From Chrysochromulina tobinii (Eukaryota), in contig JWZX01003409.1 in assembly GCA_001275005.1 (NCBI GenBank), positions 1-64,000 of the forward strand: DNA of 64,000 nt, read 5' to 3'. A program made the position numbers and the translations under genes. The notes under the pieces were generated by a model, which worked only from the letters and a program-made list of their open reading frames with translations, was not told the DNA's origin and did not search any database. Of the stretch, positions 5,485 through 61,687 are shown in pieces. Numbering within the stretch: position 1 is the stretch's first letter; every line of letters starts with the position of its first letter.

Positions 5485-5683
5485 CACGGTGTTCTCAATC
5501 GCACGGGACGAAAGGCTGTCAGGGCGACGACGCGGGAGCAAAGTCGATTCGGGGCCGCTTCGGCAAGAAACTTACAGTCGACTGTACGCCTTAGCTGCCC
5601 AGCACCGGATCGTTCCACTGCACGAACAAAGCGATTTCCCTCTATTTATCTTTCTCATCGCCCCTTTTCGCGCTCCACAAGCC

Positions 5684-7563: not shown

Positions 7564-7614
<51 letters not shown>

Positions 7615-25518: not shown

Positions 25519-27270
25519 ATGCAGCTGGGACGCGTGGACACATACAAGAACCTTGCCCCGTACGGTGGCGATCGCCATGCCAAGGGGCCGACGTCTTTCC
25601 AAAAGGGGCCGACGTCTTCGCATCCTGATGATTCAACCACGGCCATGCGTGTGGCGCTGCAGAAAATGGATAAGCGGCTTGAGAAGATGAATGACGCGCT
25701 CGAGGCCAAGGCCGACTTTTACGAGGACATAAAGCATGGCATGCAGGAGATGAAGGAAGAGCTGCAGCAGATCGAGGTGCTTGCGGGGCAGAGGAAAGCG
25801 AAGGAGAACGTGGCGCGCATCTCCTCGGCTGTGCTAAACCTGACTGACACCTTCGATTCGCTCGACCGCAACGAGTCGGGCTCCATCGACGTCACCGAGC
25901 TAAGGCGAGGCTTGCACACCCTCGGGATGGATAGTCACTCTGCACAGGCGTCCGCTATCATCGAAAGGTACACGAGAGACCAGACGATCGACATCAAGGT
26001 GTTCACGACGCTGGTGAAAGACATCCACATGCTCCTCACCTTTGACCGCGACGGCTCGGGCACCCTCGATGTCGACGAGCTCAAGGAGGCGCTAGTGCAG
26101 CTCGGCATGAATGTGTCGGACCGCAACGTGGCCAAGATTGCGCGCGCGTGGGACGCAGACGGCTCGGGAAAGCTTGACCTGCTCGAGTTCACCGACCTGG
26201 TGCGCACGCTGCAAACCTTCATGAAGTACGATAAGGACGGCAGCGGAGATATCGATCTAGAAGAGATACGGCCAGCCCTCCGTAGGCTCGGGATCCCGGC
26301 GGAAACGAAGATGACCAACGCCATCCTGAATTGGTATGACAACGACGAGTCAGGCAAAATCGAGCTGCACGAGTTCGCGGTGCTCGTGCGCGACGCGAGC
26401 GTGTTTGCTTCGTACGATAAGGACCACTCTGGCGCGCTCGACATTCATGAGCTGCGTCCCGCGCTCGCGAAGCTCGGGCTGGCGGCCAGCGAAGACGAAG
26501 TTCGTCAGATCATCAAAGCGTGGGACGACAACGGCAATGGCACCATCAACCTGCTCGAGTTCGCGGAGATCGTCCGCGACCTGCAGGTCTTCGAGCAGTT
26601 CGATCTCGACCGGAGCGGCTCCATCACTGCCGCCGAGCTACGCGTCGCCCTAGGCAAGCTCGGCAAGAATGTGTCGCACCATGGCGCGCAGGATCTGCTC
26701 AATCAGTATGACCTGGACTCGAGCGGCACGATCGAATTCTCTGAGTTCCGAAAGCTGGCCGAGGACCTGCCCTCGCTCGTCGAGCGCAAGCCCGACTCGT
26801 TCTTCCGCGAGCACGGGCAGGAGCGCGCGTACGTACACTGGGAGGATGTGCTCGACGAGGACATGCACATCGACCTCGATCAGAGTTTCGTTAAGGGCGC
26901 CAAGAGCATGAAGAAGAGGAGCGGGCAGAGTGTCGGCGCGTTGAAGATGCAATCCGGCTCCGTGCTCGGCGCCGCCAGCACAGCGCCCACGTCCGTGCTC
27001 GGCGGGGCCAGCATTCTCAGCGGCGCCAGCGTGCTAGGCGGCGGGGGGGTTGCAGGCCCGGAGGTGGGGTCCGCCGTGAAACGTGATGCCGTCGCCGCAG
27101 CGTTGCGAACGGCGACGTCGCCAAGCAACGCCTTCGACAGCCGCTTGTTCAGCGCCCGCCCTGGATCGCTTGCCAAGCGAGATTCGCTTCGTGACGTGCG
27201 ACCGACGCGATTGCTCAACAGCACGGCCGAGCCGACGCTACACATAAGCAAGAAGATTATGATGGATTGA
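25519..27270 (+). CDS. Multi-EF-hand calcium-binding protein (about 10 EF loops)
   Basis: Repeated DxDxSGxIDxxE loops. Confidence 0.9.
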   Translation: MQLGRVDTYKNLAPYGGDRHAKGPTSFQKGPTSSHPDDSTTAMRVALQKMDKRLEKMNDALEAKADFYEDIKHGMQEMKEELQQIEVLAGQRKAKENVARISSAVLNLTDTFDSLDRNESGSIDVTELRRGLHTLGMDSHSAQASAIIERYTRDQTIDIKVFTTLVKDIHMLLTFDRDGSGTLDVDELKEALVQLGMNVSDRNVAKIARAWDADGSGKLDLLEFTDLVRTLQTFMKYDKDGSGDIDLEEIRPALRRLGIPAETKMTNAILNWYDNDESGKIELHEFAVLVRDASVFASYDKDHSGALDIHELRPALAKLGLAASEDEVRQIIKAWDDNGNGTINLLEFAEIVRDLQVFEQFDLDRSGSITAAELRVALGKLGKNVSHHGAQDLLNQYDLDSSGTIEFSEFRKLAEDLPSLVERKPDSFFREHGQERAYVHWEDVLDEDMHIDLDQSFVKGAKSMKKRSGQSVGALKMQSGSVLGAASTAPTSVLGGASILSGASVLGGGGVAGPEVGSAVKRDAVAAALRTATSPSNAFDSRLFSARPGSLAKRDSLRDVRPTRLLNSTAEPTLHISKKIMMD

Positions 27271-27611
27271 GGTGATCTGGAGGTGCATGCGGCTCACAAT
27301 ATGATGGCTCGTTCTCACGCTCAACGTTATGGCTGGCCTCATCATGATACTATTTATGTCAGCGTTGCTGTACGCGTTCTGCGGCGGTCCGGTGACACGC
27401 GCCTTGGTGTACATGTATACGGAATACGAATCGTGAATACCGCGGAGGGTCGCACTCGAGACACGAGTCTCTCGAGGCCGAAAGTCAACAGCCAGTTCAC
27501 ACACCCTTGCAAATTTTTTCCGCATAGATGCCTGATCGGAGAGGTGAAGGCCCATCACCTCTCGCGCCGAAGTCCCGGCGGACCGAGGTCCCAACACCCA
27601 ACTTGCCCGCC

Positions 27612-28397
27612 ATGATGCTTGAGAGCGCCCAGCGCTTCACCGAAGATCTTGTGAAATCGGTTCGCTCCCTCGTGCGCCAAGACGGTGAGGCCTCATCGCC
27701 TCCCACGGTTCCGAGCGGCAGCACTTCTAGTATTGCAGCGTGGGAGGACACAGAGAATGAGGCGTTCGACACAACAGGCGCATCGGGACCGGCAGTGACT
27801 GGTGACGATGGTGAAAGTGCAGCAGAGCGCGCTGCCGCCGCCGTGGTCGAGGAGGAGCCACCCGCGTTGCCCTCTGCCTCGTGGACCCTCTTTGGCGATG
27901 GGCTGCAGAGCGCGGTGGTAGGGCAGTTGTCCAGCTTCGTCATCGAGAGCTTCGACGCGACGGGCGCTCGCCGGCAGCAGGGCGGCGACAAATTCAAGGT
28001 CTCGCTCACCGGTGCAGCCGAAGTACGGACACGCGTCTTCGATGAGGGTGACGGTCGGTATACGTGCGAGTTCCGGTGCCCGTCATCAGGCAAGTACTGG
28101 CTCGCGGTGAAAGCGCACAGCACACACCTGCCAGGTAGCCCCTTCTTGCTGGACGTCAAGGCCCTCTCGCTCAAGGAGTACAAGGAGCACCGCGCCAAGG
28201 AGGTTGTCGTCCTCAAAGAGAAGCGGAAGCAAAAGGAGCGCGAACGGGGAGCGAGGAGGGACGACAAGGAACGTCCGCCGTCGCCACGGATCAACGCGGC
28301 CGAGCAGCTCGCAAAGGCGTATGAGCTCGCATTGCAGATAGCCCGGGGCGGCGCGAAGAGTCGCCCTCAGGATCAGCTCGAGTGCGCCCCGGATTGA
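27612..28397 (+). CDS. Filamin-repeat (Ig-like) protein
   Basis: GDGL..AVVGQ.SSFVIE.FD..G.R...GGDKFKV..G...D.GDGRY..GSPF. Confidence 0.85.
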   Translation: MMLESAQRFTEDLVKSVRSLVRQDGEASSPPTVPSGSTSSIAAWEDTENEAFDTTGASGPAVTGDDGESAAERAAAAVVEEEPPALPSASWTLFGDGLQSAVVGQLSSFVIESFDATGARRQQGGDKFKVSLTGAAEVRTRVFDEGDGRYTCEFRCPSSGKYWLAVKAHSTHLPGSPFLLDVKALSLKEYKEHRAKEVVVLKEKRKQKERERGARRDDKERPPSPRINAAEQLAKAYELALQIARGGAKSRPQDQLECAPD

Positions 28398-28776
28398 TCG
28401 AGCTCGAGGGCCAGCAACGAAGATCGCGCAGGGACGCGTTTCCGGCGCACTGAGAAAGTGCAGACCTGAGCAGACCCGACTCATGACATCTACATGTTAG
28501 GATACAACCCTTCAGATATCAACCCTTCAGATATAGATATAACCGACAGTACCGCGGGTACCGTACGGTCGGTTATAATCAATTGAGTTTGAGATAAAAT
28601 ATGTGCACCGTAAGGTACCCCACCACGTCGATATGTATGAGGAAACGTAACCAGCGTGTAGCTGTGTGTGTTGACGTTGTAAGCGGACCAACTTTCGGGA
28701 TACGTGGTCAACGAGTCAGTCGCGTCAGATTGCATGGTGTTTCACAACTTGACTTGGGAGCTGCGGCGATCAACGT

Positions 28777-29475
28777 ATGGCAACGCGGTGGGTGTCCATG
28801 GCTCAGCTCATAGCGTGTACGGACGTTTGCGCATTGACTTTGGCGACTGAGAACAAGCTCAAGGTTCTGTGCCTACATGGGTACGCTCAGAACGCTGAAA
28901 TCTTTCGTGACCGGAGCGGAGGATTCCGGAAGCCACTCAAAAAGAGCATGTATGAGATGCACTACGTCGATGGCCTCTTTGGATGCACAAAGGATGGCGA
29001 GGACGAGGCAGAGGCCGACGCCGATCCGATGCGCCGCGCGTGGTGGCGAGGAAGCTCGGCGGAGCTGAGTTACAAGGGATGGGACGAGACACATCAACTA
29101 CTCACGCAGATGTGGCTCCGCGAAGACTTTGATGGCGTCATCGGTTTCTCGCAGGGGGCGGCCGCCGCCGCCATGCTCTGTGCCGAGAGGAAGCCCATGT
29201 TTGGAATGTTTGTGTCGGGCTTCGTGCCACGTGATCGCCACGCTGCAGCTGCGTTGTTGGCGGGGGTGCGCGATGTGCCCACGCTGCACGTCTTCGGCGA
29301 GAGCGACGAGCTAGTGACGCCCGAAAGGTCGCGGGCGCTCGCGGATCTCTTTGATGGCGCGAGTGTCATCGTGCACGAAGGCGGGCACATGATTCCGTCG
29401 AGTGCGCATGTGCGCACGCAGGTGCTCAGCTTTTTGGATTCGGTAACGCCGTCCCTGTTGGATCCCCTGAAGTGA
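28777..29475 (+). CDS. FSH1/OVCA2-like serine hydrolase
   Basis: LCLHGYAQNA, GFSQGA nucleophile, GESD, HEGGH. Confidence 0.92.
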   Translation: MATRWVSMAQLIACTDVCALTLATENKLKVLCLHGYAQNAEIFRDRSGGFRKPLKKSMYEMHYVDGLFGCTKDGEDEAEADADPMRRAWWRGSSAELSYKGWDETHQLLTQMWLREDFDGVIGFSQGAAAAAMLCAERKPMFGMFVSGFVPRDRHAAAALLAGVRDVPTLHVFGESDELVTPERSRALADLFDGASVIVHEGGHMIPSSAHVRTQVLSFLDSVTPSLLDPLK

Positions 29476-29645
29476 CTAGCACAAAGATCGATCTGCGCAC
29501 AACAGACAGCGCAGAAAAAATGAGGAGGAGGCAGCCTCCCTGGCTATAACGGTGAAGCATAAGTGCAGGAGCGTAAAACAGAAACTGCTGTGCTCGGAAT
29601 TTGACAATGGAAATTGGAATTTGAAATACCCGATTTGGAATCTGT

Positions 29646-29725
29646 AAAAAGACACCGGGGGGAGCCGGGACACACACGAGCGACGAGGAATCTGTACGCT
29701 TAGGTATGAGGTACAGTGTATCCCG
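29646..29725. mobile_element. Degenerate second copy of the TIR element at 33164-33320
   Basis: aaaaagacaccggggggagccgggacacacac arm plus remnant opposite arm gtgtatcccg at 29716-29725. Confidence 0.6.
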
Positions 29726-29850
29726 ATCAACAATCACGACGACACACATTACCGAGGACGCGGTTGGAGCTTAGCCATCATGCGGCCTTGACGCTCGGAG
29801 AAAGGCTTTCACGCTCACACCCAAAAGGTGTGGTCGCCTCTTGCCTTCTC

Positions 29851-30513
29851 ATGTTCATCTTGGCGTTTGTGGCAGCGGCGGCGTCCGTACCGGAATACTC
29901 TTTGCAAACAGGAGACCTCCTTTTCGTCCAACCTCCACTTGATGCAACGCTGCCGCTCGATTCCGCGATTCTCGCCACCGGGGCGGCGACCATAGCCTGG
30001 CTGCGCTCGCAAGGCGTCCCAGTTGCGTCGAATGAGACGGTGGTGCACGTTGCCCTAGTTTATCGCGACACGCAGTCTGACCGGGTGACGCTCGTGGAGG
30101 CCACTCCGCCTGTCGTCACGCAGACACCGGCACGCTCCTTTTTCGAGTCGTGGATCAATGCTTCCACATTCTTCCTTGGTCGCCTCAAAGATCCAGACGT
30201 GCGTGCCCATGGCGCTGAAGCGGTAGGCGCTGCGCTTCAGCAGCTTGGTAAGCCATATGCCGACGACTTTGGCACACCACCACAGGAATTTTACTGCAGC
30301 AGCCTTGTCACCTGGGCGTATGGGAAGGCGACTGGCAAAGACGTGAATGTATTCGTGGATCAGCCCTTTACACTCATCTTTGAACCGCTCGAGTTTTGGG
30401 AGCAATACTACTCGGACATGAATATGACTTTGCCGCTCAACGTCACGGGTTCCAACCCGACACTGCTCCTCCACTCTCCGCGCGTCGAATTTTCACGGCT
30501 GGGCTATACATAG
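29851..30513 (+). CDS. Permuted papain-like amidase (YiiX/YebB, NlpC/P60 superfamily), secreted
   Basis: Signal peptide; LQTGDLLF, HVALV (His) preceding FYCSSLV (Cys); GKPY. Confidence 0.85.
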   Translation: MFILAFVAAAASVPEYSLQTGDLLFVQPPLDATLPLDSAILATGAATIAWLRSQGVPVASNETVVHVALVYRDTQSDRVTLVEATPPVVTQTPARSFFESWINASTFFLGRLKDPDVRAHGAEAVGAALQQLGKPYADDFGTPPQEFYCSSLVTWAYGKATGKDVNVFVDQPFTLIFEPLEFWEQYYSDMNMTLPLNVTGSNPTLLLHSPRVEFSRLGYT

Positions 30514-30811
30514 TCATTACGTTACACGAGTCACGACAGCGGTGCCCGGGTGGGCCGGCTTAGTAAAAAGAAATTGATCCGCGGACTGAACACCGATTTG
30601 AACAACGAGCGTGCGCTCGGCTCGAAAACGCTGCTCCGTCTCTCGGTAAGCTCTCCAGCCCCATCCTCGCACGGGCACACGACCGAGATACGAAACACGC
30701 ACCAATCGAAATACAGTCCGCCGAGAGCCACCGAGACCGGGCACACGTTTACGGCGCGGTACCGAAAAAAGAGCATACGAGACGCGCTCTCTAAGCGACG
30801 TAGTACGCTGT

Positions 30812-33052
30812 CTAAGCACGCCCCCTCCGCTTTGAGCTGCCCTCACTGCATGTGAGCTGCTTGAAGAGCACCTCCTTCGCCTCGGAGCATTCTCGCATCT
30901 TACGCTCCGCGCGCGCCTTGAGGCCCTTGTACCGGTCAGGATGCCACTGCTTCGCAAGCTTCCGATACTGCTTGATGACCCAGGAGCATTGGTCTTCGGG
31001 CTTGAGGTCTCCGAGGTTCGCAGGCAGCTCGAGGACTGAACGGTGGTTGCGCCCGCTGTTCGGGTCGCCCGCGTGCCCGCACCGATTGTCATGCCATGCC
31101 TTTTGATCCGAAGGGTCGATGCACCGCCATTTTCTCTGCAGCTCCAGCACACGGCGCAAGTTGCCTTCAAGCGCCTGCGCGGCCTCCTTAGGGGCGCCGG
31201 GACCGCTCGAGAGTTCAGAGGCAGCGCGCAGGTCCGCAACAGCCTCGTCGAAGTTCTGGTCGGCTTCGTGGGCGACTGCACGCGCCTCGAGAGCCTCACG
31301 CACGCGTGCGGGGTGCACTTGCACTCCGGGCCCAGGCGTCGACAGCGCGCTGTAGGCAGTCTGGCAGTCCTCCATCGCCTCCACGTGCTTCTTCATCGCG
31401 GACCGTGCGCGGCATAGCTTGAGCAGCACCTGGGCTCGAAGGAGCGTGTTGCCCACGTCCATGCCCCTCAACTTAGCAAGCACCGTGTCCAGCTCGGCGA
31501 CGGCACGGTGGTTGTAGCCCTTGACCACCTGCTCCTCGGCAGAGGCCATGAGCTGCAACACCGCCTTGAGCTGCTTGTATTGGGTGCGCACCTCTTCTTG
31601 ATCAGGGTCGTACTTGAGCACACTCGCGAGGAAGCTGAGGGCCTTCTTGCCATCTCCCTGCTCGAGCGCGGCGGCGGACCCAAGGGCGACAGCGAGCATC
31701 CGCGGCTGGCCTCGTAGCCACGGGCTGTACGTCGCCGTCGCCTCCACCACGCGGGCGGCCGCTCGCTGTGCACTGCCCCATCGGCCAAGCATCTGGTGGC
31801 AGCGCGCTTCGAGAAGCTGGAGACGTGCCGACGAGCGAAGATCGCGCGGCAGCCGCTCGAGCGCGTCGAGTGCCGCCTGCCACTGCTCCGTGCGCACCGA
31901 CGTGAAGAAGGGTAGCAGGGCCCGCTCAGCCACCATCATCTGGACCACGCCCTCGCGTGCCGCATTGACTTCCTCCGCGCTCAGAGTCGCACCGTCGGGA
32001 TGAGCGAGGAGACGCGTGTACAGGACGCCGGCCTCACGGAATGAGGCCGCGCTTCGGTGCTCCCCGGCGCGTCGCAGTAACTCGGGCGGACTCGTGCTGG
32101 GGCGCGCTGCCAACCACTCCGCCAACCACACAGGCGAGCCAGTCATCCGCGCCTGTACAATCTCGCTCAGCTTTCGCACCTCGTCGGCGGAGTGCAGCCC
32201 ATGCGCAGAGCAGAACTCGTACACCGCATGCGGCCCGTCCTCGTGGCTGTTGCGCACCACAAGCTTCTTTGTGAGCACTCCGCTGCCATCGTTGGCCGGT
32301 CCACGCAGCTGAAGCTCTAGCTCGAACAGCGCCGGTGACGGCTTCGCTTCCACGAGCAGTCTGTCGTCATCCATGCTGGCTTGCAGGTAGGCCGACCAGT
32401 CTGCTTCGTCCCGAGCCGCGCGCGCCCTCGCCTCCTGCAGCGCGAGAGCCTCCTCGACTCGCCGAGCCTCAGCGGCCGCCGCCTCCCGCGCCTCCTGCGC
32501 CTCGAGCATCCTTTGCTGCTTGAGCTTCTGCATGGCCGTGGCAAGGAGCTGCTTCAGGTCCGCCACGGTGGTCTCATCCAAGCCTTCACGCAGCACGAGG
32601 GCTCCTGATGCAGGTGAGGGCATCACGCGAGCGGCGGGAGGCAGGAGCGCGCGGATCAAGTGGGCCGCGGCCTGGTCGTGCTCGCCGTCTTTCGCAAGCT
32701 CGGCGGCCTTCTTCTTGTACGCTCCAGCAGTACGCAGCAGCAGACTAGCCGGCGCCTCGTGCGAAATCGCTGCAGCATCCTGCGCGAACATGTTCGCGAG
32801 ACTAAGCACCGAGTCAACATCCTCAATCCCATGGCGCTCTGCGAAAATCACGCTCGCTATTGCCGGATCTTGCGAACGAAGCATCACCGCCGCGGCCTCC
32901 TGCCCTGAGGTGAACTTTATACTCCGAGACAGTACGACAGTATCGTCAGCGATCTGCTCTGCTGATTGCAAGCTTTCCTCGTCAGCAGATGCGAGAGCGA
33001 GAAGAAGTACGGCGAGCGTGGGGAGAAAGAGCGGTGCGCTGCCACGTCGCAT
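30812..33052 (-). CDS. DNAJC3/P58IPK-like ER TPR + J-domain protein
   Basis: Signal peptide, TPR helices, C-terminal J domain YRKLAKQWHPD. Confidence 0.85.
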   Translation of the reverse strand: MRRGSAPLFLPTLAVLLLALASADEESLQSAEQIADDTVVLSRSIKFTSGQEAAAVMLRSQDPAIASVIFAERHGIEDVDSVLSLANMFAQDAAAISHEAPASLLLRTAGAYKKKAAELAKDGEHDQAAAHLIRALLPPAARVMPSPASGALVLREGLDETTVADLKQLLATAMQKLKQQRMLEAQEAREAAAAEARRVEEALALQEARARAARDEADWSAYLQASMDDDRLLVEAKPSPALFELELQLRGPANDGSGVLTKKLVVRNSHEDGPHAVYEFCSAHGLHSADEVRKLSEIVQARMTGSPVWLAEWLAARPSTSPPELLRRAGEHRSAASFREAGVLYTRLLAHPDGATLSAEEVNAAREGVVQMMVAERALLPFFTSVRTEQWQAALDALERLPRDLRSSARLQLLEARCHQMLGRWGSAQRAAARVVEATATYSPWLRGQPRMLAVALGSAAALEQGDGKKALSFLASVLKYDPDQEEVRTQYKQLKAVLQLMASAEEQVVKGYNHRAVAELDTVLAKLRGMDVGNTLLRAQVLLKLCRARSAMKKHVEAMEDCQTAYSALSTPGPGVQVHPARVREALEARAVAHEADQNFDEAVADLRAASELSSGPGAPKEAAQALEGNLRRVLELQRKWRCIDPSDQKAWHDNRCGHAGDPNSGRNHRSVLELPANLGDLKPEDQCSWVIKQYRKLAKQWHPDRYKGLKARAERKMRECSEAKEVLFKQLTCSEGSSKRRGRA

Positions 33053-33163
33053 GGATGTTCAGAAATCGACCTTTTGCTCATTTTCGGCGCGAGCGACAAA
33101 TTTGGAAGGCGTTCACACTGTCGCAGTTAGCCAAGATTTTTCAAAGTGGCTTCTACAGCGATG

Positions 33164-33320
33164 TACCGGTACTGTACCGGTTCAAAAACACCGGGGGGAG
33201 CCGGGATACACGCGGGTCATCGCGTGGTCGTGCGCGCGTCGGTGAGTCGGTTCGATTCTGAGGTTCGTCTGTGTGTGTCCCGGCTCCCCCCGGTATTTTT
33301 GAACTGTACGAGTACCGGTA
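33164..33320. mobile_element. MITE-like element with ~48-bp terminal inverted repeats and TA at both ends
   Basis: taccggtactgtaccggttcaaaaacaccggggggagccgggatacac (33164-33211) is a near-perfect reverse complement of 33273-33320. Confidence 0.75.
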
Positions 33321-33400
33321 TATGCCTGCCGCTCGCGATTGTACCCGGTAGCGTGATTTCACGCGCGTGGACGTCATCACTCGAGGAAAGAGGGCCGTCG

Positions 33401-34645: not shown

Positions 34646-34989
34646 CAGACGGACGCGTTGGGGTTGGGTAGGCCAAGCCACGCCCAATTTGATGTCGATG
34701 CAAAAAAGCTTCATGAAGCTTTTTGCGGGTAACGGCTGACGCGCGGGTACTACTGTAACCTTACTCGGTTACTGCGGCAACGCGTAGATTGGGAATGGCA
34801 CGGCACAACATTTTTGCAGTGTGATGCGAACTGGTGCGTGATTGCGGCGTGTACAGCACGGTAGAGATACCCGGCGTACAGTAGTACGCAGTCAGAAGTT
34901 TGAAATCAGGGTATGAGGATTGTGTGCAAATCCAGATATGAATCCCTCCCCTACCCCCTTGGGTAAATTCTCACTGAAACTCGAAACTG

Positions 34990-37900
34990 TCAACGCACGG
35001 CCCGCGCCTGAGCTACGCTCGCGACCACTATCGAGCCCACGGAAAAGGCGACGCTGCCCAGCACGAGCAGCGCGCCGCTCGACGTCCACCCATCGCCGTA
35101 CGGACCGGTGGCAACGCGAGTAACGAGATCGGCTGCGAGGTCGGCGGCCCACGTCGTCGGGCTCGTCGTCGTCGTCGTCGCTGCTGTCGGCCTCGTCGTT
35201 GTCTGCGCCATTGTCACCGTCATCGTCATCTCGGCAGACACCGCGCTCGGCGCGGCTTCCAGCGCCCCCCCTTCGCCCGTCAGCGCTGACGCCGCGGCCT
35301 CGGGCGCTCCTGTGCCCTTGCTCTTCTTACCATCCTTGGTGCCCTTGAATCCCTTCTTACCCTCGTTAGGGCTCTTAAACCCCTTGCCACCGTGCGCATG
35401 CGTCTTGCCGCCGACGCCCTCGCCGCTCACGAAGTTGCCGTCCGCGTCTAGCGAGCCGCTAAACCACTGGAGTGCCTTGAGGTCATCCGCAGCCGCATAC
35501 GCGGCCTCAGCGGCCGCCGAGAGCTGCTGCTGCTGCTGCTGCGAGCAGCCGCGCCCGCCGCCCGCGAGGCGCCGGCGCGAGAGCGCGAGCGAGGCCGACC
35601 AGACGGCGCGCGCGTCGTACTGCCCGTGCGTCGCCTGCGCGCGGCGCGCGGCTGCCTCGTCCTCGATGCTCGGTGGCGAGATCGGCGGCGGCACGTGCGG
35701 GGGGCCAGCGATGCGCCCGTACGCCTCGCGGCGCAGGCGCATCAGGTCTTCGAACTCAGGCTCGAGCAGCGGGAGCATCGTGCGCAGCAACGACTGGAAG
35801 AGCGTCGGGAAGAGCGCCTCCTGCGTGGCGAGCAGGCACTTGATGCGGTAGCGCTCCTTGGGGGCTTCAAAACATGCTGGGCACGTCTCCGAGACGATCG
35901 GCAGCCGGACCGACTCCGAAAAGGCCTCGGCCTCGTGCTCGCGCACGTACGCGAGCGGCCGGATGACCCGCAGGTCCTGTGCGTCGATCGTATAGTGTGC
36001 CTTCATCGAGCGGAGCGCGCCGTTGTGCATGGCCGACATGAGGAAGGACTCGGCGAGATCGTCGAGATGCTGCGCCATGGCGAGCACATTGTACCCCTCG
36101 CGCCGCGCGGTCGCGTAGAGGACGCCGCGCTTCATGCGCGAGCAGAACGAGCAGATGGACACGCGGTTGCCTTCTTTGGCCATGCACGGCTCGGCAATCT
36201 CGAGCAGCGGGTGCTTCTCGTAAAAATAGGGCAGCCCGAGCTTGGCGCAGTAGGGGATGAGGGGCGACGGGTCGAAACCGTCAGCGCCAGGGTCCACGGT
36301 GCAGGCGCCCAGCTCCCACTGGAATGGAGTGCGCTTCTGGAGCGCATGCAGGATGTGCAGCATGGCGAGCGAGTCCTTGCCGCCGCTCAGCCCGACGAGC
36401 ACGCGGTCGCCGGGTCGAAGCATCCCGTACTGGAGGATGGCGCGAAGCACCCTGTTGGACAGCTTCGTGTCCGGGGTGGCCCAGCCCGAGCCTCCAGCGC
36501 CACCGCTGCTGCTCGCGCTGCCGACACCCTCGGCCACTGCTGCTGCCGCCGCGTCGGCAGCGTAGGCGGCTTCGGGATCCAAAAATGGATCGAAGCCCTC
36601 GCCGAGACTCGCGCCCACCGGGTCCGCGCCGCTGCCCTCGCCGCCGCCCTCGCCGCTGCCCTCCCGGGCGCCGTCTCGAGCACCAACGGCGCTCGGCACT
36701 GGAGCCGGTGGGCACGCGAGCTGCGCATCTGCCCGCGCAAAGGCGGGTGGCTCGAAGGGGGCGCGCGCGACGGGGATCACCCCGCGGTGCATCGCGGCCG
36801 CCTCACCTGGAAGGAGAAACCAACGGAGACGGGCGCCCTCGGGAGATAGCATCTCCGCGAGGGTCTGGCCAGCAAGGGGTGCCCCCGTGTTTCGTCGCAT
36901 CTCCGAGGACGCAATCTTGGCAAGCGCGTGCGCCTCGGCCAGGGCAGCCTCGAAGCGGGCGGCCTGCGCGGCGGCCGCGCCCCCCTCGCCGCCCGTCCCG
37001 GCGCGCGGCATCGAAGGCTGCCCCTCTGCCCTCTTCCAGCTCAGCGCTCCTCCAGCGTACGAGATGCCACCGAGCCAAGCGCGCGGCGGGCGGCGCTGGT
37101 GCACGTGGCGCCACTCGGCGGTGCGTGCGTCGCACAAGTACTGCGGCAGCAGCTTCCACCCGTGCTCCGCGACAAAGTGGACGGCGTCGAGCACGTAACG
37201 TACTTGCTGCGCGTCGGCAAAGTAAGGAAGGGAGAGGCGCACGTAGCCGGGGCGCAGCAGCTCGTTGTCCTCCTTCTTGACCAGCTGTGCCTCGAAGGCG
37301 TCCGAGAGCGTGCCGTCGATGCCGAGCAACTGCTGCGAGTACGGCCCAGCGCACATGCAGCCGCCGCGCGCCTGGATCCCGAAGAGGTCATTGAGCAGCG
37401 CGACCACATAGTTGTGGTGCAGAAGCAGCGGGCCGCCGCCGCCGCTCATGCCGCCGGCCGTGCCGTCCGTGACGCGGAAGGCGAGGGCGAAGATGGGCAG
37501 CCGCTTTGCCGTCGGGTGGCCGAGGATGGCGATGCGCGGATGGCGACCCCACGCGGCACGGCACGCGCCCAGGAGCGCGCCATCGGCACGTGCGATCGCG
37601 GGCGCGCCAACGGCCTTCTGAAGCTGCAGCACGAGGCCGGCGCGGATGGCGCCCACGATGCTCGGAGTACCACCCTCCTCGCGCTCTTCGTCGTTCTTGA
37701 GGTACACGTGCCGCTCCCGCGACACGTAGAAGACGGTGCCCCCGCCCGGGCACGTCGAGATGCCGCGCGTCGCGAGCGCCTTCTTGTACACGAGGACGCC
37801 TGCCGCCTGTGGCCCGCCCGCGAACTTGTGCGGCGAGAAGAAGAGGGCGTCCTTGGCGATCAGGCTCGCGCGCTCCGCGTCCTCGTGCGGTGGGTTCATC

Positions 37901-38670
37901 GCCAGCCCGATCGCGTACGGCGCCGCCGACGCGTAATCCCAGACGGCGAGGGCACCATGCGTGTGCAGCAACGCAGTGATCGCATCCACGTCAGAGAGGA
38001 TGCCGGTGACGTTGGAGGCGGCTGAGAAGGCGCCGACGCGCAGTGGCCGGTGCGCGTGCGCGCGCAGCGCCGCCTCGAGCGCGTGCAGGTCCACGCCGCC
38101 CGCCGCCGCCTCGCCGATGCTCACGACGTCCGCGACGCTCTCACGCCACGGCAGCAGGTTGGAGTGGTGCTCATAGGGGCCGACGAAGACGACAGGCCGC
38201 TGCGCCTCGGGCAGCGCGTGCGCGGCAGCGCGCGCCTCGGGCGTGGGCGCGAGCAGCCCGAGCATCGCCACCAGCCGGTTGGCACCCGCCGTCGCGCCCG
38301 AGCCCGCGAAGAGCACCCTGTCGGCATTCTTGCCGCGGTCGTTGCACCGCAGGTAGTTTTTGATCATGACGCGCGCCTCGGCGACAAAGTCGCTCGACTG
38401 GCGGCCCGTCTTGGTTGTTGACGTGTGCGTGTTGCCGTACGTGGGCAGGATCGCCTCGCGCACGTAGTCCTCGATGAAGGCGAGCGCCCGGCCCGAGGCG
38501 GTGTAGTCTGCGTAGACGAGCGGCCGCAGCCCAAAGGCCGTCTGCGACTGCAGATCGCGCCCGAGCTCGTTGGCGCGGATGTAGCCGAAGAGTGGCGCGT
38601 CCGACGGGTGGTGGTGCGTCTCGGCCGTCTCGTCCTCGGTGGCCGACGGGTTTCCTTCGATGGTGCTCAT
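34990..38670 (-). CDS. Cysteine desulfurase (aminotransferase class V) fused to TtcA-type tRNA 2-thiocytidine synthetase
   Basis: YADYTASGR, EHHSN, SPHKF (PLP Lys), GGTP, RGGCMCAGPY; then SGGKDS PP-loop, CSFCSRMKRG, QHLDDLAES, VIRPL, CPAC. Confidence 0.9.
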   Translation of the reverse strand: MSTIEGNPSATEDETAETHHHPSDAPLFGYIRANELGRDLQSQTAFGLRPLVYADYTASGRALAFIEDYVREAILPTYGNTHTSTTKTGRQSSDFVAEARVMIKNYLRCNDRGKNADRVLFAGSGATAGANRLVAMLGLLAPTPEARAAAHALPEAQRPVVFVGPYEHHSNLLPWRESVADVVSIGEAAAGGVDLHALEAALRAHAHRPLRVGAFSAASNVTGILSDVDAITALLHTHGALAVWDYASAAPYAIGLAMNPPHEDAERASLIAKDALFFSPHKFAGGPQAAGVLVYKKALATRGISTCPGGGTVFYVSRERHVYLKNDEEREEGGTPSIVGAIRAGLVLQLQKAVGAPAIARADGALLGACRAAWGRHPRIAILGHPTAKRLPIFALAFRVTDGTAGGMSGGGGPLLLHHNYVVALLNDLFGIQARGGCMCAGPYSQQLLGIDGTLSDAFEAQLVKKEDNELLRPGYVRLSLPYFADAQQVRYVLDAVHFVAEHGWKLLPQYLCDARTAEWRHVHQRRPPRAWLGGISYAGGALSWKRAEGQPSMPRAGTGGEGGAAAAQAARFEAALAEAHALAKIASSEMRRNTGAPLAGQTLAEMLSPEGARLRWFLLPGEAAAMHRGVIPVARAPFEPPAFARADAQLACPPAPVPSAVGARDGAREGSGEGGGEGSGADPVGASLGEGFDPFLDPEAAYAADAAAAAVAEGVGSASSSGGAGGSGWATPDTKLSNRVLRAILQYGMLRPGDRVLVGLSGGKDSLAMLHILHALQKRTPFQWELGACTVDPGADGFDPSPLIPYCAKLGLPYFYEKHPLLEIAEPCMAKEGNRVSICSFCSRMKRGVLYATARREGYNVLAMAQHLDDLAESFLMSAMHNGALRSMKAHYTIDAQDLRVIRPLAYVREHEAEAFSESVRLPIVSETCPACFEAPKERYRIKCLLATQEALFPTLFQSLLRTMLPLLEPEFEDLMRLRREAYGRIAGPPHVPPPISPPSIEDEAAARRAQATHGQYDARAVWSASLALSRRRLAGGGRGCSQQQQQQLSAAAEAAYAAADDLKALQWFSGSLDADGNFVSGEGVGGKTHAHGGKGFKSPNEGKKGFKGTKDGKKSKGTGAPEAAASALTGEGGALEAAPSAVSAEMTMTVTMAQTTTRPTAATTTTTSPTTWAADLAADLVTRVATGPYGDGWTSSGALLVLGSVAFSVGSIVVASVAQARAVR

Positions 38671-38902: not shown

Positions 38903-39057
38903 ACCATTCAGTTCCCAAACAGGTGTGGGGTTAGGGCCTTATAAACATGAAAAATAGTAGACCACTCCCCCTTGGGTCAACCATTCAGTTCCCAAACAGG
39001 TGTGGGGTTAGGGCCTTATAAACATGAAAAATAGTAGACCACTCCCCCTTGGGTCAA
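38903..39057. repeat. Exact tandem duplication, 77-bp unit x2
   Basis: accattcagttcccaaacaggtg...cttgggtca repeated at 38903 and 38980. Confidence 0.95.
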
Positions 39058-39484
39058 GGCGGGGGCCGACCGCGACGAAACCTCAAACCTGACCGCTCTG
39101 ACTGTGACACTGACTGACTGACTGTCACTGTGACGGGGTACACACGGGTCTACACTGCGACTGCCTGCGCGTACACGCATGTGTTTGGCTGCGATTCGCT
39201 GGTAAAGTGCTCTCGGCGAATGCCCTCACCGCGCTCCGTCCCAGCTCTCTACTCTCCCACTTCCTGTCCCACGCTGCGACGCAATTGGTCCCACGGGCTT
39301 CTTACGGGTTTCGGCCTTGTTCGCGCGCCCGCTCTCAAGCATCTTTACTCTCACGCCCTCACATGTGCTCCAGGCACGAGCTCGGCACACGTTGCACTCC
39401 CTGCGGCTGCCCCAAGGTGCCGCGTCCCGCGTGAGAGCGGTCCTTAGTATCTGGCGCCGTCGAACCGAGTATCCCATCTTCCAC

Positions 39485-40354
39485 TTACTTTGGGATCGGT
39501 GCGCGGCACTGGGGGCACGCATTCTTCCGGTTCAGCCATTCAGTGACACATGGCTCACAGAACTCGTGGCGGCAAGGCAGGCGGACAAGGGTGAGGCCCG
39601 TCGTAGGCTCGTCAAGGCAGATGGCGCATGGCGCAGCCTGCCGGAAGAAACGCACGAATGTGCGCCGTGGGAGCGCCTCGATCACATCCGTGGGCACGCT
39701 GTCCTCCTCTTCCTCCCCTAAGTCCTCCTCATCATTATCGTCTGCCACATCGGAGTCGCCGTCGTAGTCACCTCGTTCTAGCGCAGCATTGAGGACCGAA
39801 GAGGAGGAGACCAAGGAGTAGCGCAGCAACGCAGCCTCATTGTTCAGCATGTCCTTGTAGTACGCCGCGCAGTGGCAGCAAAGGTTACCGAACTGTGTGG
39901 CTGTGAACCAGAGGGCGTTGATGCGATAGAGAATTTCACCCGTCTGAGTGTGCATGCGGGGATCACCAGGACGAGCAGGATCATCACGGCATCCATGGCC
40001 GTATCGATAACACCCGTTTGCGAATGAAGGCGGTGAAGAGGGATCAGTCTGCTCTCCATGATTGTCGAAACCTACGCACTGCAGCTCCGGGCCCATGAGC
40101 TCCTTGGCATGTAACGTCTCATCTAGGACTAGCCCTCGCCGAGAATGGTAGAAGCCGACGAGGATGCCCTGCTTCGTACGTGCACCATGGGGAATCGCCC
40201 ACGGCACTCGCCCCACGACCTCATCTGGGAACGTGAAGTGCCAGTGACCATTCTCGTGCAGTGTGAGACTCTCTCCAGCGAACGGGCCGTCGGGAATAGC
40301 CACCATGTCGCCGACGGCGTCAACCGTGGCGAATCGGGGCGATCTTCTCGGCAT
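39485..40354 (-). CDS. Protein with C-terminal RING finger
   Basis: CAICLDE..LPCRHEFCEPCVTEWLNRKNACPQCR after an acidic linker. Confidence 0.85.
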   Translation of the reverse strand: MPRRSPRFATVDAVGDMVAIPDGPFAGESLTLHENGHWHFTFPDEVVGRVPWAIPHGARTKQGILVGFYHSRRGLVLDETLHAKELMGPELQCVGFDNHGEQTDPSSPPSFANGCYRYGHGCRDDPARPGDPRMHTQTGEILYRINALWFTATQFGNLCCHCAAYYKDMLNNEAALLRYSLVSSSSVLNAALERGDYDGDSDVADDNDEEDLGEEEEDSVPTDVIEALPRRTFVRFFRQAAPCAICLDEPTTGLTLVRLPCRHEFCEPCVTEWLNRKNACPQCRAPIPK

Positions 40355-41319
40355 GATGTTGTGGGGCGAGCGCACCGTCAAGCGTCAACGACGCAGCGTG
40401 CTCGAGCGAGCGGGAAGAGGAGGGACTTGAGTGGGTCTCGCGCGTTCTGCCGCCCGCGCGCGAGTTTGCCACCGAACCGCGCTTCTGTTTGTGCTCACTT
40501 GTGCAGTTTTTTCTTTTTCTGTTTCCGTGCATGCATGCAATGCAGAGAGCAGCGAACCAGCGATGCGTCCTTCACAACTAGGATCTGATCTTTTATTAAA
40601 AACGCATGAAAACACGTAAGAAGCTAAATAAGGCGCTGTCCACCGCAGGTCAGCGCACCCGGTAGTCGGTGCAAAACATACATCAGTTCGGGTTCTTTCG
40701 AGGTACAATTTACGACCTATCGTACGCGTAACTTTTATGAAAGGAGGAGACGCTCACGGTCACTCTCTAGTCGAGCGACTCGTCGAGTCGTTTTCACACT
40801 TCCGGTACGTGTCTCGTGTCACTTCCGTGTTCCGCGGACACACCCAGCCACTCAGCCAGGAGCATGGCCACAGGACGCAGGAGCAGGACGCAGGAGCCGA
40901 GCGTGAAGTGTGCGAGTTCAAAACGCGGAACGTAACATTCGTGACCGCCAGGGACCGGGTCCCGGGCCTCGCTGCTCGCATCGGCACCACACCAGGAGGG
41001 TGCAATCCCTCTCCCCCTTCCGTCCCGCAGCCGCACCGGGGCGCTGCGTGGGTGCGCGTCCGCGACCGTGTACCATACACCCCCGCAGGTGGCCACGCTC
41101 GGCGCCACGGCCGGCGCGCACGCGACGTGCGATACTGCGCGACACGACGGACCACGCAGACCCGAACATCCAGCGTCACGCTCGACCCAGATCTCAACGC
41201 AGTGCTGCCAGCTCTCTGCAACCCTCCCTGCCCCCCCCACACCTACCGGTCCTACCCCATTCTGCAATCACTGATTTCGCAGCAGAGATTCGCTCGAGCC
41301 CCGTGCTCCACCGCAAGGG

Positions 41320-54088: not shown

Positions 54089-54305
54089 GAGCTATGGGCA
54101 CACGTCGCGCTGCGCGGCTTTCCGGCTTCCTGGCGTCGCACTTCATTAGGCGTCGCTCCGCAAAACTCGCGTCGAAACCGGCGTGTGAACGTTAACACGA
54201 CAGGCGCGACAACCTGTGTGCTGGCTGTTAATTCTTTCTCGGCGAACGTTCCTATTCACAAGCAACTTCACTAAATTTGTGGAGCAGACGGCCCGGTCGG
54301 GACCG

Positions 54306-58936: not shown

Positions 58937-61632
58937 TTACCGCCCATCTCCATATAATCGACCCCATGAAAGGCGAGCCATGGTCGTGCGGTGCGGGCGT
59001 GTTTGTGCGGCAGCGGGTTCGTAAGTGTTCGAGCGTAGCATCCGCGACGCCGGCAGGGCGCTTGGAGCGGCCCTCATGCCCGCAGATGGCTGCACAGCCG
59101 TGATCATGGCTCGAACTCCCGCTGAGTAGCGCGGCTGGGCGGCATGCTGGGCGCTCGAGACGGTGACCAGGCCCAAACTGAGCGCACTCTGCGGTCGAAG
59201 CAGGGGTGTGGACCGTTGCGAAGGCAAGATGCCGGCGCTCTGGGGCCTGTTTGCGAGGAGTGAGCTCGTTGACGAGGAATGACCTGTGGCGCTGGTAGCC
59301 TTGCCTCCGGCACTGTGCGGGCGCGTCGGTCGGGTGGAGGCTTGCGTGCTCGTCTGGGCTACGGAAGCATCCACAGAATCAGCTATCAAAGAGAGTGTCT
59401 GTGAGCTCCCACTGAGTCTGCCCTCGTTAGCGCCCACGTGAGCGCCCTCCTGAGCGCCGTCGTGAGCGCCGTCGTGAGCGCCCTCGTGAGCGCCTTCGGA
59501 GTGCGCCCTCGTCAAATCGGGCTCCGGCACTGGCGATGGCGTGTTCGATGTCGTGTTCGATATTGTGTACGATGGCGTGTACGATGGCATCAACCAACCA
59601 CGCACACTTGTGAACAAGTCGCCTCCGGGTGCTCCCAGGATGGCTGGCTTATGAGCCGCCGTGGCGAGCGTCGGACCGGAGGGTCGTGCCTTTGCACGCC
59701 TCAGCTCAGCCAGCGAATGGTGCAGGCCCTGTTGTCGGCCAGCAAATCGTATACGAGATCGGTCGAGATTGTGCTGAGCGATCGCACGCTTCTGACTAAG
59801 GGCGAGGGTGTGGCTGTGCCGTTCGCGCCGCAGCAATTCGTTCATCTTGCCCTCGGCAGTACGTCGCGCCTCTCGCCACGCCTGGTACTCGCCTTCTGCG
59901 TCGCCCTCCATCTCACCCACTGGGAAGTAGGTGAGTATGGGTGCGGATCTCACATGCTTCTTACCCTGCTGCAGCCGAGCATGCTGCAGCCGAGCATGCA
60001 AAGTCTTGGCTTCCACTGTTGCATGCAAAGTCTTGGCTTCCACTGTTGCATGCAAAGCCTCTTCCACTGTTCTCTTGGCCGAGGGATCCTGCTCGTTCAT
60101 GCAGCCCACGAGGGGATCGTAGTTGGGCTCGTGGACCGGTAAGTGGACCGGATCAGCCTCGCTAGCTTTTGCGGCCATCTGGAGCACTTGGTTCACAAGC
60201 AGATCGTTCTCAACGGGCCTTCGAGCCCCAGCGCTCAGCTCCCCCCGCTGATCCGCCTCGATCTCGGTAGATCTCGGTCCTGAGCTCAGCTCCCCCCGCT
60301 GATCCGCCTCGATCTCGGCCCTGAGCTCGGCCTCGATCTCGGCCCTGAGCTCAGCCTCGTCGTCCTCAATGACCGGCTGATCATCCCAACCAGGCGCGAA
60401 GGCCGGCTGGCCTCCCGGCAGCGAAAACTTGCGACTCCGCTCAGGCACGGAGCCCTCCTCACTTGAACGAATCGTAAAGCTTGCCTTGCGCGTGCTGCTC
60501 TTTATGCTGCTCTTGCCGACAGGGCTGCTGGATCCGGCACTGATGCTGGATCCGGCACTAGCCCCGACTTCTTCCTTGCATGATCCATCAGTGTTGAGCT
60601 GGGAATGGGGGGGCGCCAACAGAGCCTCGTGCGCCCAGTGACGTGCTCGCCGAGCTTCGCGCGCTTGGTCCAGAGAGTCTGCCGAGAATGCGTACGGTAC
60701 CAGCAGCACTCGCAGACGCGGCGGCGATGGCTTCCGCTGCGTCGCTACCGGTACTGCTGGCGTGGAGAGCGGCAGCACCGCCTCCTCCCTAGCCGCATTC
60801 ACCGGCGCTGCTCTCTGGATCTCCGCTGACTTCTGCCTTCTCTGCCTGGACTCTTCTGTTGCAGCCTTTGTTACTTTCTCCTCCGCCTCCGCTGCGGCCC
60901 TCACCTCCGCCGCTAACGCCTTCGCAATCGCGATGGCCGTGTCGGCCGCCCTCTTTGCAACCCGATTCCCTGCTGCCTTGGCCGCTCCTGCCTTCGCCTG
61001 CTCCGTCTTCTTCTCTGCACGCCGAAGAATCTGCGCATTCCTGGCCTCCATGGCCGTCTCCCTCTTGATGGTCATCAGCTCAGTCTTGCTCGGAGAGCGC
61101 TCAAGACGGCGCTGGGTCGTCAAGTTGAGGGCCGCGGCTGCCTCTGCGCCCTTGGCATTGGCATCCTTTCGGAGCGCTGCCGTCTTCTGCGCGTCCGCAC
61201 GGGCTGCCTCCACCTCCTGAGCCGCAGCCATCACCGCAGCAGCTAGGGAGGTGGAGGCAGCGGCCATCAGCGCAGCGTCGACTGTGGCGTCCGATGCTCG
61301 TTCAAGCTCATCGGCTCGAGTCATCGCTTGGCTCTCTGCTGTCGCTTGAAGCTGTGCCCACATCCCTACGGTAGTAGCTTGTTGTGGCACCGCCGCTCGA
61401 CGACGCGTAGCCCGACCGCGCGCATGTGCCTGCATCTTCCTCGCCGCCGCCGCCATCGCCGCCACCCTCTTCACCTTCTCGGCCGCCTTCGCCTCCTCTG
61501 TGAGACGAAGTGTCTCCTCCGCTGCTCTCGCCGCCTCCGCGGCTCGCTCGGCCGCCCGTCGGCGCTCTCGGCTTCCGCGTAAGCGCTCGCGAGCCTCGAG
61601 TGCCTGCTGATTATTCGAGGTCACGCCTGCTG

Positions 61633-61687
<55 letters not shown>

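What the first reader, a model, noticed from the sequence alone, without database searches (positions are those of the whole stretch)
34990..38670. Cysteine desulfurase-TtcA fusion: a self-contained tRNA thiolation enzyme in a eukaryote
Seen: one intron-less ORF with a PLP desulfurase domain (SPHKF; RGGCMCA resembling the SufS-type RxGHHCA catalytic loop) linked to a PP-loop domain with SGGKDS, CSFC and CPAC. It lacks the flanking Zn fingers of TtuA/Ncs6, so it is TtcA-type. Known: bacterial TtcA makes s2C32 using an Fe-S cluster and sulfur from IscS in trans; s2C32 is not an established eukaryotic tRNA modification. Inference: a channelled sulfur relay, or a new RNA/small-molecule substrate. 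Similar fusions may already be in databases, but I know of no characterisation.
Basis: partly seen in the sequence, partly recalled or inferred. Interest (0 to 1): 0.78.

Follow-up and report, generated by a model that had tools for sequence, protein, structure and literature searches.

The report
Haptophyte desulfurase-TtcA fusion with membrane tail
This algal gene joins a sulfur-releasing-type enzyme to a tRNA-thiolating-type enzyme in one protein that likely puts sulfur on tRNA cytidine 32 and is predicted to hang from a membrane by its tail, but the same fusion is widespread in eukaryotes and was described in a sea slug in 2026, so it is a new member of a known, still untested family.

Summary
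Observation confirmed: one 1226-codon ORF (34990-38670, minus strand) with a SufS-fold PLP domain and a TtcA-type PP-loop domain, all named motifs in place, no zinc fingers. It matches a Chrysochromulina tobinii database protein. The fusion is not new: 863 relatives across eukaryotes, a September 2026 preprint describes the Aplysia orthologue and found s2C32 on a eukaryotic tRNA, and this scan noted it before on other DNA (8 notes listed). No activity has been shown for any member. Added here: (1) Cys440 aligns with the catalytic Cys361 of B. subtilis SufS, the residue the preprint could not assign; the domain is class II-like, not IscS. (2) All fusion TtcA domains form one clade whose closest relatives are a 'CPAC' TtcA subfamily, many from sulfur-oxidising Proteobacteria. 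That subfamily never co-occurred with canonical TtcA (0 of 151 genomes), which suggests the same job. (3) This protein ends in a predicted tail anchor (14 of 118 fusions), and 8 of 117 relatives carry a thioredoxin instead. Channelling is not shown. Verdict: new member of a recently described family; interest 0.42.

The parts
34990..38670 (-). Whole ORF, 1226 aa (P0001): desulfurase-type domain, extension, linker, TtcA-type domain, tail, predicted tail anchor
37141..38598 (-). SufS-fold (class II-like) PLP domain, aa 25-510
   Evidence: Pfam Aminotran_5; best fold match Synechocystis SufS 1t3i, Z 32.3, rmsd 2.3, 396 aligned; Foldseek list is SufS-type enzymes
37822..37836 (-). SPHKF, PLP-binding Lys282
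   Evidence: Lys in 110 of 117 relatives, the other 7 gaps; aligns with SufS HK motif
37348..37368 (-). RGGCMCA loop: Cys440 = predicted persulfide Cys (B. subtilis SufS Cys361); Cys438 replaces the first His of RXGHHCA
   Evidence: profile alignment to 5j8q/7e6d/8d8s; both Cys in 115 of 117, other 2 gaps
36751..37140 (-). Family-specific folded extension, aa 511-640, with the RWF motif; also in stand-alone bacterial relatives
   Evidence: RWF in 106 of 117 fusions and 108 of 113 stand-alone desulfurases; mostly high pLDDT
36484..36750 (-). Low-complexity linker, aa 641-729
   Evidence: pLDDT under 50 over aa 655-726; not conserved
35746..36483 (-). TtcA-type PP-loop domain ('CPAC' subfamily), aa 730-975
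   Evidence: fold matches TtuA/NcsA/TilS, TMq 0.72-0.78
36370..36387 (-). SGGKDS PP-loop (ATP binding)
   Evidence: 116 of 117 relatives
36142..36153 (-). CSFC: Cys840, Cys843 = E. coli TtcA Cys122, Cys125 (cluster ligands)
   Evidence: 117 of 117; alignment; mutants in PMC4081106
35872..35883 (-). CPAC: Cys930, Cys933 = second CxxC of E. coli TtcA; Cys933 is the predicted third ligand
   Evidence: 117 of 117; alignment
35086..35745 (-). Poorly conserved tail, aa 976-1195
34993..35085 (-). Hydrophobic C-terminal segment followed by a short basic end: predicted tail anchor, aa 1196-1226
   Evidence: mean hydropathy 2.33 over 18 aa; same kind of end in the two nearest non-identical relatives and in 14 of 118 fusions; read through in RNA-library contigs

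Best explanation
The gene encodes one protein with a SufS-fold domain and a TtcA-type domain, which likely makes 2-thiocytidine at position 32 of cytosolic tRNAs using sulfur that it is predicted to release from cysteine itself. Shown by sequence: single ORF, both active sites intact and near-invariant across the family, same architecture as the Aplysia protein. Inferred steps: (1) PLP on Lys282 breaks down L-cysteine to alanine and a persulfide on Cys440. (2) A reductant frees the sulfur as HS- next to the second domain. The neighbouring invariant Cys438 may resolve the persulfide, and thioredoxin, fused in some relatives, would recycle it. (3) The TtcA domain binds a [4Fe-4S] cluster through Cys840, Cys843 and Cys933, adenylates C32 with ATP at SGGKDS, and the cluster-bound sulfur displaces AMP. 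Tethering would give a high local sulfur supply; a closed channel is not required. (4) There is no N-terminal targeting peptide (acidic 24-residue start), so the catalytic domains would face the cytosol, probably anchored by the C-terminal helix in this lineage.
For: Both domains and motifs. Cys440 aligns with SufS Cys361; PLP His168, Asp245, Lys282 and Arg435/Arg478 are kept. The three Cys essential in E. coli TtcA are kept in 117 of 117. All 121 long homologue TtcA domains form one group that includes three mollusc proteins. Aplysia has this fusion and s2C32 on tRNA-Lys(UUU). The closest bacterial subfamily is the only TtcA-like gene in 50 of 50 genomes that carry it. In a class-wide sample of 151 genomes, 46 had only it, 74 only the canonical-like type, 0 both, 31 neither; 22.5 would be expected to have both, Fisher p 2e-18. 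Domain order is fixed, 107 of 107 and 77 of 77. E. coli TtcA needs DTT with IscS/cysteine and also accepts inorganic sulfide; WCxxC thioredoxin domains are fused in 8 of 117 relatives.
Against: No member has been assayed or knocked out in anything I read; the Aplysia link is co-occurrence in one species and one tRNA. The domain falls below NCBI's TtcA cut-off (184.9 of 272), is 33% identical to E. coli TtcA and sits in a separate clade with no tested member. The desulfurase falls far below the SufS cut-off (79.5 of 475) and departs from RXGHHCA; position 248, a Gln in the aligned SufS sequences, varies T/A/C/S. Bacterial CPAC carriers lack this desulfurase type (0 of 50; the 3 of 151 that have it are not CPAC carriers), so the two halves are not obligate partners. 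Thioredoxin fusions were 0 of 138 in a second set. The exclusion counts come from related, often incomplete genomes, so the p value overstates the evidence. Aplysia's substrate (tRNA-Lys) differs from E. coli's (Arg, Ser).
Confidence: 0.7

Rival explanations
1. The TtcA half makes s2C32, but the desulfurase half only builds or repairs its oxygen-sensitive [4Fe-4S] cluster, or serves other sulfur acceptors; the substrate sulfur comes from the general cytosolic pool.
For: TtcA's cluster is oxygen-labile. The linker is long, disordered and variable. Bacterial CPAC enzymes manage without this desulfurase.
Against: Fixed order and joint retention of both active sites across amoebae, alveolates, stramenopiles, haptophytes and animals suit a dedicated donor. 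Class II desulfurases depend on a specific partner (PMC8300815).
Confidence: 0.13
2. The CPAC subfamily has another target: a different tRNA position, another RNA, organellar tRNA, or a small molecule adenylated and thiolated in the same way.
For: Separate, untested clade below the TtcA cut-off. The PP-loop fold serves many substrates. Membrane anchors and thioredoxin add-ons are not TtcA features.
Against: Mutual exclusion with canonical TtcA. s2C32 found in a eukaryote whose E. coli-TtcA search returned this fusion. TtcA profile score is more than three times that of the TilS, TtuA or NcsA profiles.
Confidence: 0.11
3. The N-terminal half is not a cysteine desulfurase but another PLP lyase (selenocysteine, cystine or C-S lyase), so the donor or the element transferred differs.
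For: CxC in place of HHC, unconserved Gln position, low profile scores. Selenocysteine lyase and C-S lyases are on the fold list at Z 25-27.
Against: Best sequence and fold matches are SufS enzymes, Z 32.3. The catalytic Cys position is kept in every ungapped row.
Confidence: 0.05
4. Two separate genes read as one, or a bacterial contaminant.
For: No single RNA contig spans both domains; the TtcA half is 55-63% identical to stand-alone bacterial proteins.
Against: One frame without stops; same fusion in hundreds of proteins including transcriptome-derived ones; neighbours are eukaryotic genes (RING, histone deacetylase, YTH, EF-hand); fusion domains form one eukaryotic group.
Confidence: 0.01

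Closest known systems
Aplysia californica 'IscS-TtcA' fusion LOC101861551, 1177 aa (bioRxiv 10.64898/2026.09.27.754811)
   Same: Domain order, PLP lysine, CxC loop, SGGKDS, CSFC, CPAC, unconserved linker; mollusc orthologues fall in the same group as the window protein.
   Different: Haptophyte, intron-less, ends in a predicted tail anchor that none of the named animal members in the tree has. It lacks the equivalent of the preprint's third candidate Cys588 (Cys in only 24 of 117). The desulfurase is class II-like, not IscS.
E. coli TtcA (tRNA C32 2-sulfurtransferase; PMC4081106)
   Same: PP-loop, two CxxC motifs with all three essential cysteines, no zinc fingers, 33% identity over 231 aa.
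   Different: Fused donor domain; CPAC instead of CNLC; separate clade; below the equivalog cut-off.
Stand-alone 'CPAC' TtcA-family proteins of Thermithiobacillus, Thiothrix, Halothiobacillus, Thiobacillus and relatives (database annotation only)
   Same: 55-63% identity, CPAC motif, nearest relatives in every tree.
   Different: About 250 aa, no desulfurase within 6 kb in 80 of 80 loci; no paper found on them.
Class II cysteine desulfurases SufS/CsdA
   Same: Fold (Z 32.3, rmsd 2.3), PLP residues, catalytic Cys position.
   Different: RGGCxCA instead of RXGHHCA, a 130-residue RWF extension, about 20% identity in structure alignments, no SufE/SufU domain fused.
Moco sulfurase ABA3/MOCOS and bacterial desulfurase-rhodanese fusions (PMC8931425)
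   Same: Works like: a cytosolic desulfurase fused to the domain that uses its sulfur.
   Different: Partner is a PP-loop Fe-S thiolase; no MOSC or rhodanese domain found.
Toxoplasma Elp3 and RlmN (cited second-hand in PMC9433433)
   Same: Precedent for Fe-S RNA-modifying enzymes tail-anchored at mitochondria in a protist.
   Different: Radical SAM enzymes, unrelated; location of the present protein is only predicted.

Membership tests
Eukaryotic desulfurase-TtcA fusion (Aplysia type) | CsdA/SufS-like domain N-terminal to a TtcA-like domain in one ORF | tested here: met
Eukaryotic desulfurase-TtcA fusion (Aplysia type) | PLP lysine, CxC loop, SGGKDS, CSFC, CPAC | tested here: met
   against the preprint's list
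Eukaryotic desulfurase-TtcA fusion (Aplysia type) | Same clade as mollusc fusion proteins | tested here: met
   groups with Mya, Babylonia, Gigantopelta proteins; support 100, 96, 97, 91 in four trees. The Aplysia sequence itself was not retrieved.
Eukaryotic desulfurase-TtcA fusion (Aplysia type) | Makes s2C32 on tRNA | not testable with these tools
   untested for every member; no tRNA gene in the window, no genome held
Canonical TtcA (NF007972 equivalog) | Score over curated cut-off 272 | tested here: not met
   184.9 bits; E. coli TtcA scores 513.8
Canonical TtcA (NF007972 equivalog) | PP-loop plus three essential cluster cysteines, no zinc fingers | tested here: met
   C840, C843, C933; the paper's C219/C222 are read as C210/C213 of NP_415860.1, a 9-residue numbering offset that I infer
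Canonical TtcA (NF007972 equivalog) | Falls in the clade of E. coli TtcA | tested here: not met
   separate CPAC-plus-eukaryote side, support 99-100
Canonical TtcA (NF007972 equivalog) | [4Fe-4S] cluster and C32 thiolation | not testable with these tools
   needs protein
   no Cys at 654-789, only unconserved C945 and C1042 after CPAC; profile scores 48.9 and 30.9. No Ncs6/Ctu1 sequence was in my trees.
TilS | TilS_N score over 93.6 and TilS C-terminal domains | tested here: not met
   54 bits; no TilS C-terminal Pfam; three TilS-like sequences form their own long branch
Class II cysteine desulfurase (SufS/CsdA) | Fold, PLP lysine and catalytic Cys in a short loop | tested here: met
Class II cysteine desulfurase (SufS/CsdA) | RXGHHCA consensus and SufS cut-off | tested here: not met
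   RGGCMCA; 79.5 of 475 bits
Class I cysteine desulfurase (IscS/NifS) | SSGSACTS consensus with long loop | tested here: not met
   motif absent; consensus from PMC8300815
Moco sulfurase (ABA3/MOCOS) | C-terminal MOSC domain | tested here: not met
   no MOSC Pfam match
Tail-anchored membrane protein | Single hydrophobic helix at the C-terminus with a short basic end, no signal peptide | tested here: inconclusive
   sequence pattern met by my own hydropathy rule; no dedicated predictor or localisation

The most novel reading that the evidence does not exclude
This lineage's enzyme is a membrane-tethered sulfide generator and tRNA thiolase in one: anchored on the mitochondrial outer membrane, where sulfur for cytosolic Fe-S clusters leaves the organelle, it uses the Cys438-x-Cys440 pair as a thioredoxin-recycled switch to release HS- onto its own [4Fe-4S] cluster. 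It would rebuild, inside an oxygenated eukaryotic cell, the sulfide-rich setting in which the bacterial CPAC TtcA subfamily works, and s2C32 would be an old, pan-eukaryotic tRNA mark missed because the usual model organisms were not reported to have it.
Probability: 0.15. Interest if true: 0.75.

Novelty: new member of a known kind. Interest (0 to 1): 0.42.

Why it matters
If right, the gene predicts 2-thiocytidine in haptophyte tRNA and, with its relatives, across several eukaryotic supergroups, where only one report exists (Aplysia, 2026 preprint). It also names the residues to mutate (Cys440, Cys438, Cys840/843/933) in a family no one has assayed. An intron-less single ORF is a convenient clone for that first test. 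The bacterial CPAC subfamily, which seems to replace TtcA in about a third of the sampled genomes yet falls below NCBI's TtcA cut-off, and the recurring tail anchors and thioredoxin add-ons were not found in my literature searches. The fusion itself is no longer a surprise.

Tried and rejected
Complex prediction of the two halves (aa 25-646 with aa 728-987): no verdict, score 0.00, alignments not used; it bears neither way on docking. 'Eukaryotes got the domain from a Thermithiobacillus-like donor': free trees nest the eukaryotes among CPAC bacteria, but a tree with the bacteria held together was not rejected and scored 14 log-likelihood units higher (p-AU 0.76), so donor and direction are not shown; the careful tree did not finish. 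Bacterial operon or fusion as precursor: no desulfurase match in 80 of 80 loci; these are the best 80 of 446 confirmed among an estimated 1800 stretches, so a bacterial fusion elsewhere is not excluded. A GGRGCS motif in the tail as a mobile sulfur carrier: only 6 of 117 relatives have it; dropped. Preprint's Cys588 as catalytic: Cys in 24 of 117, Ala here; dropped. RNA contig ends near 34930 as a transcript end: a high-copy repeat also breaks the DNA contigs there; dropped. Three joints listed have 21-base sides and no GT-AG ends; ignored. Uncovered stretch 39318-40519 in four RNA runs is not used as evidence. Viral collection: 11 loci, best 35% identity, none of the CPAC type among the 4 treed. 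No tRNA genes in the window; no whole genome held, so the alga's tRNAs, Ncs6/Ctu1 and other desulfurases could not be checked. Look-up of earlier findings by sequence gave nothing. Literature searches without a hit on CPAC TtcA or on an assay of the fusion: (0 papers).
Full report
Observation. The window holds one stop-free ORF on the minus strand, 38670 to 34990, 1226 aa. Pfam finds Aminotran_5 at aa 52-485 and ATP_bind_3 at aa 757-924. NCBIfam ranks TtcA first (184.9 bits, under its cut-off of 272), far above TilS (54), TtuA (48.9) and NcsA (30.9); the N-terminal half scores best, but weakly, as SufS (79.5 of 475). Neighbours are ordinary eukaryotic genes: DnaJ-domain, RING, DNA ligase, histone deacetylase, YTH, EF-hand.

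Source and gene model. The top hit is a Chrysochromulina tobinii protein, 100% identical over the TtcA part, so the window is from this haptophyte or a very close relative. That database model (982 aa) cuts out aa 535-622 and about 1023-1068 and ends differently. The first cut removes R616, W617, F618 and P621, each kept in at least 90% of 117 relatives. Contigs of RNA libraries cross both ends of that predicted intron (X17 36894-37492, X14 36681-36970), the acceptor of the second, and the tail (X14 34961-35532) without a joint. The intron-less reading is therefore the better one. Limits: contigs only, none spans both domains, DNA carry-over is not excluded, and no true splice was seen nearby as a control.

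The fusion is common and published. A search with the TtcA part among proteins of 674-2146 aa gave 863 hits; the 120 listed include heteroloboseans, choanoflagellates, ciliates, Triparma, sponges, corals, flatworms, molluscs, arthropods, echinoderms and lancelets, plus dinoflagellates, a rhizarian and an amoebozoan. In a second set of 138 cluster representatives, 77 of 83 proteins of 800 aa or more carry the RxGCxCA loop, always before the PP-loop. [quoted passage not shown] This scan noted the same fusion in other genomes; 8 notes were listed, 6 holding all search words. I had found the preprint before reading them.

Desulfurase half. A profile of this domain aligns RGGCxCA with RAGHHCA of SufS, placing Cys440 on B. 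subtilis Cys361 and Cys438 on the first His (that Cys361 is catalytic follows from the class II consensus in PMC8300815, passages, and the C361A structures listed). Both Cys are present in 115 of 117 relatives, the rest being gaps; His168, Asp245, Lys282, Arg435 and Arg478 are kept. The AlphaFold model (pLDDT 85.7) matches SufS best (Z 32.3, rmsd 2.3, 396 aligned). The preprint searched for the IscS cysteine and offered Cys448, Cys450 and Cys588. By spacing from the PLP lysine in two mollusc relatives (146/148/286 against 147/149/287), Cys450 is the equivalent of Cys440, and Cys588 is not conserved (24 of 117). Stand-alone bacterial relatives are about 50% identical, 550-600 aa, with RGGCSCA in 110 of 113 and the RWF extension in 108 of 113.

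TtcA half. E. coli TtcA aligns at 33% identity, with Cys122, Cys125, Cys210 and Cys213 on Cys840, 843, 930 and 933. PMC4081106 (passages) finds the first pair and the last Cys of the second pair essential and requires ATP, DTT and a [4Fe-4S] cluster; its numbers 219/222 are 9 higher than my count, which I take as an offset. No TtcA structure came up; the model matches TtuA, NcsA and TilS folds. The nearest stand-alone proteins are 55-63% identical, about 250 aa, end in CPAC, and come, where named, largely from genera known as sulfur oxidisers (Thiothrix, Thiomargarita, Halothiobacillus, Thiobacillus, Thermithiobacillus; lifestyle recalled). They too fall under the TtcA cut-off. All 121 long homologues form one group apart from these bacteria and from canonical TtcA. 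Whether eukaryotes nest inside the bacteria or are their sister is open.

What the CPAC subfamily does. Of the first 50 of my 80 loci, all 50 genomes had exactly one TtcA-like match at E 1e-20 and none over the canonical cut-off. In 151 genomes drawn from the class, matches split into 45 at 50-60% identity, one at 45% and 74 genomes at 31-38%; none had both types, 31 had neither. Expected overlap is 22.5, Fisher p 2e-18, inflated by kinship and incomplete genomes. I checked 19 genes from 18 of the 74: all have the PCxLCG motif and group with E. coli TtcA. Mutual exclusion is what two versions of one enzyme would show. The RGGCxCA desulfurase was not found in the 50 CPAC genomes and in only 3 of the 151, none a CPAC carrier, and no desulfurase lies within the 80 loci. 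The pairing therefore looks eukaryotic, within what was searched.

The tail. The last 31 residues are a hydrophobic stretch with a short basic end. By a simple rule (18 residues, mean hydropathy 1.4 or more, at most one charge, basic end of 12 or fewer), 14 of 118 fusions pass (three near-identical copies of the query left out), against 1 of 115 short TtcA-like proteins, 0 of 113 stand-alone desulfurases and 24 of 5900 shuffles; in the second set 6 of 138 pass, against 12 of 6900 shuffles. Anchors lie in several places on the tree (at least 4 changes forced), and are absent from the named animal members there. Eight of 117 relatives (Triparma, two dinoflagellates, unnamed ones) instead end in a WCxxC thioredoxin domain; none did in the second set. 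A tail-anchored Fe-S RNA-modifying enzyme has precedent in Toxoplasma Elp3 (PMC9433433, passages, second-hand). Which membrane is meant here is a guess from the basic end.

Mechanism. Shown: one protein, two intact active sites, fixed order, membership of the Aplysia-type family. Inferred: cysteine to Cys440 persulfide; reductive release of HS-, possibly through Cys438 and thioredoxin; capture on a three-cysteine [4Fe-4S] cluster; ATP-dependent thiolation of tRNA C32. E. coli TtcA works with inorganic sulfide (PMC12084879, passages), so tethering alone could do the job. Channelling is neither shown nor needed, and the linker varies from 236 to 755 aa between motifs in 107 proteins. I put 0.70 on this, 0.13 on a cluster-service role for the desulfurase, 0.11 on another substrate, 0.05 on another lyase activity and 0.01 on artefact.

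Verdict. Real, well supported as an observation, and a new member of a family first described in 2026 and still unassayed. It is not a canonical TtcA, SufS or IscS by their defining tests, but very likely works like TtcA fed by a SufS-type donor. The catalytic-cysteine assignment, the CPAC subfamily and the tail anchor were not found in my searches and make the family easier to test. Interest 0.42.

Noticed in passing
window 38903-39056: Two perfect head-to-tail copies of a 77-nt unit just upstream of the gene; summed contig depth in DNA run X1 is 26,000-33,000 against about 45, so a high-copy genomic repeat. A second high-depth repeat lies near 34900-34970, just past the stop.
   Followed up: partly
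window 33156-33328: Inverted repeat, 56-nt arms, 82% complementary, 61 nt apart; resembles a small non-autonomous element.
   Followed up: no
P0002 (NCBI model of this gene): The database model has in-frame predicted introns that remove a conserved motif and the hydrophobic tail; probably mis-annotated.
   Followed up: yes
P0250-P0362; L164-L166: A large bacterial family of stand-alone SufS-like proteins with RGGCSCA and an RWF extension, below all desulfurase cut-offs in the 4 scanned; partner and function unknown to me.
   Followed up: partly
P0008, P0009, P0016, P0026, P0064 with P0001, P0005, P0006: Triparma (stramenopile) and dinoflagellate fusions group with the haptophyte-type ones (support 99) and carry thioredoxin where these carry a tail anchor; possible transfer between algae.
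   Followed up: partly
L145 (G057:C7:56629-57333): A CPAC-clade gene that has lost the CPAC cysteines and sits on a long branch.
   Followed up: no
L081-L084: Viral-collection contigs with TtcA-family genes of Firmicutes/Bacteroidetes type; may be host DNA.
   Followed up: no
L159 (Haliovirga abyssi plasmid record): TtcA-like gene between a 7-cyano-7-deazaguanine synthase gene and a second ATP-binding protein.
   Followed up: no
window 5459-14689 (+) and 58937-62485 (-): Open frames of 3076 and 1182 codons with no Pfam match over cut-off.
   Followed up: no
window 54189-57071 (+): ABC half-transporter (ABC_membrane plus ABC_tran); not checked whether it is of the Atm1 type.
   Followed up: no
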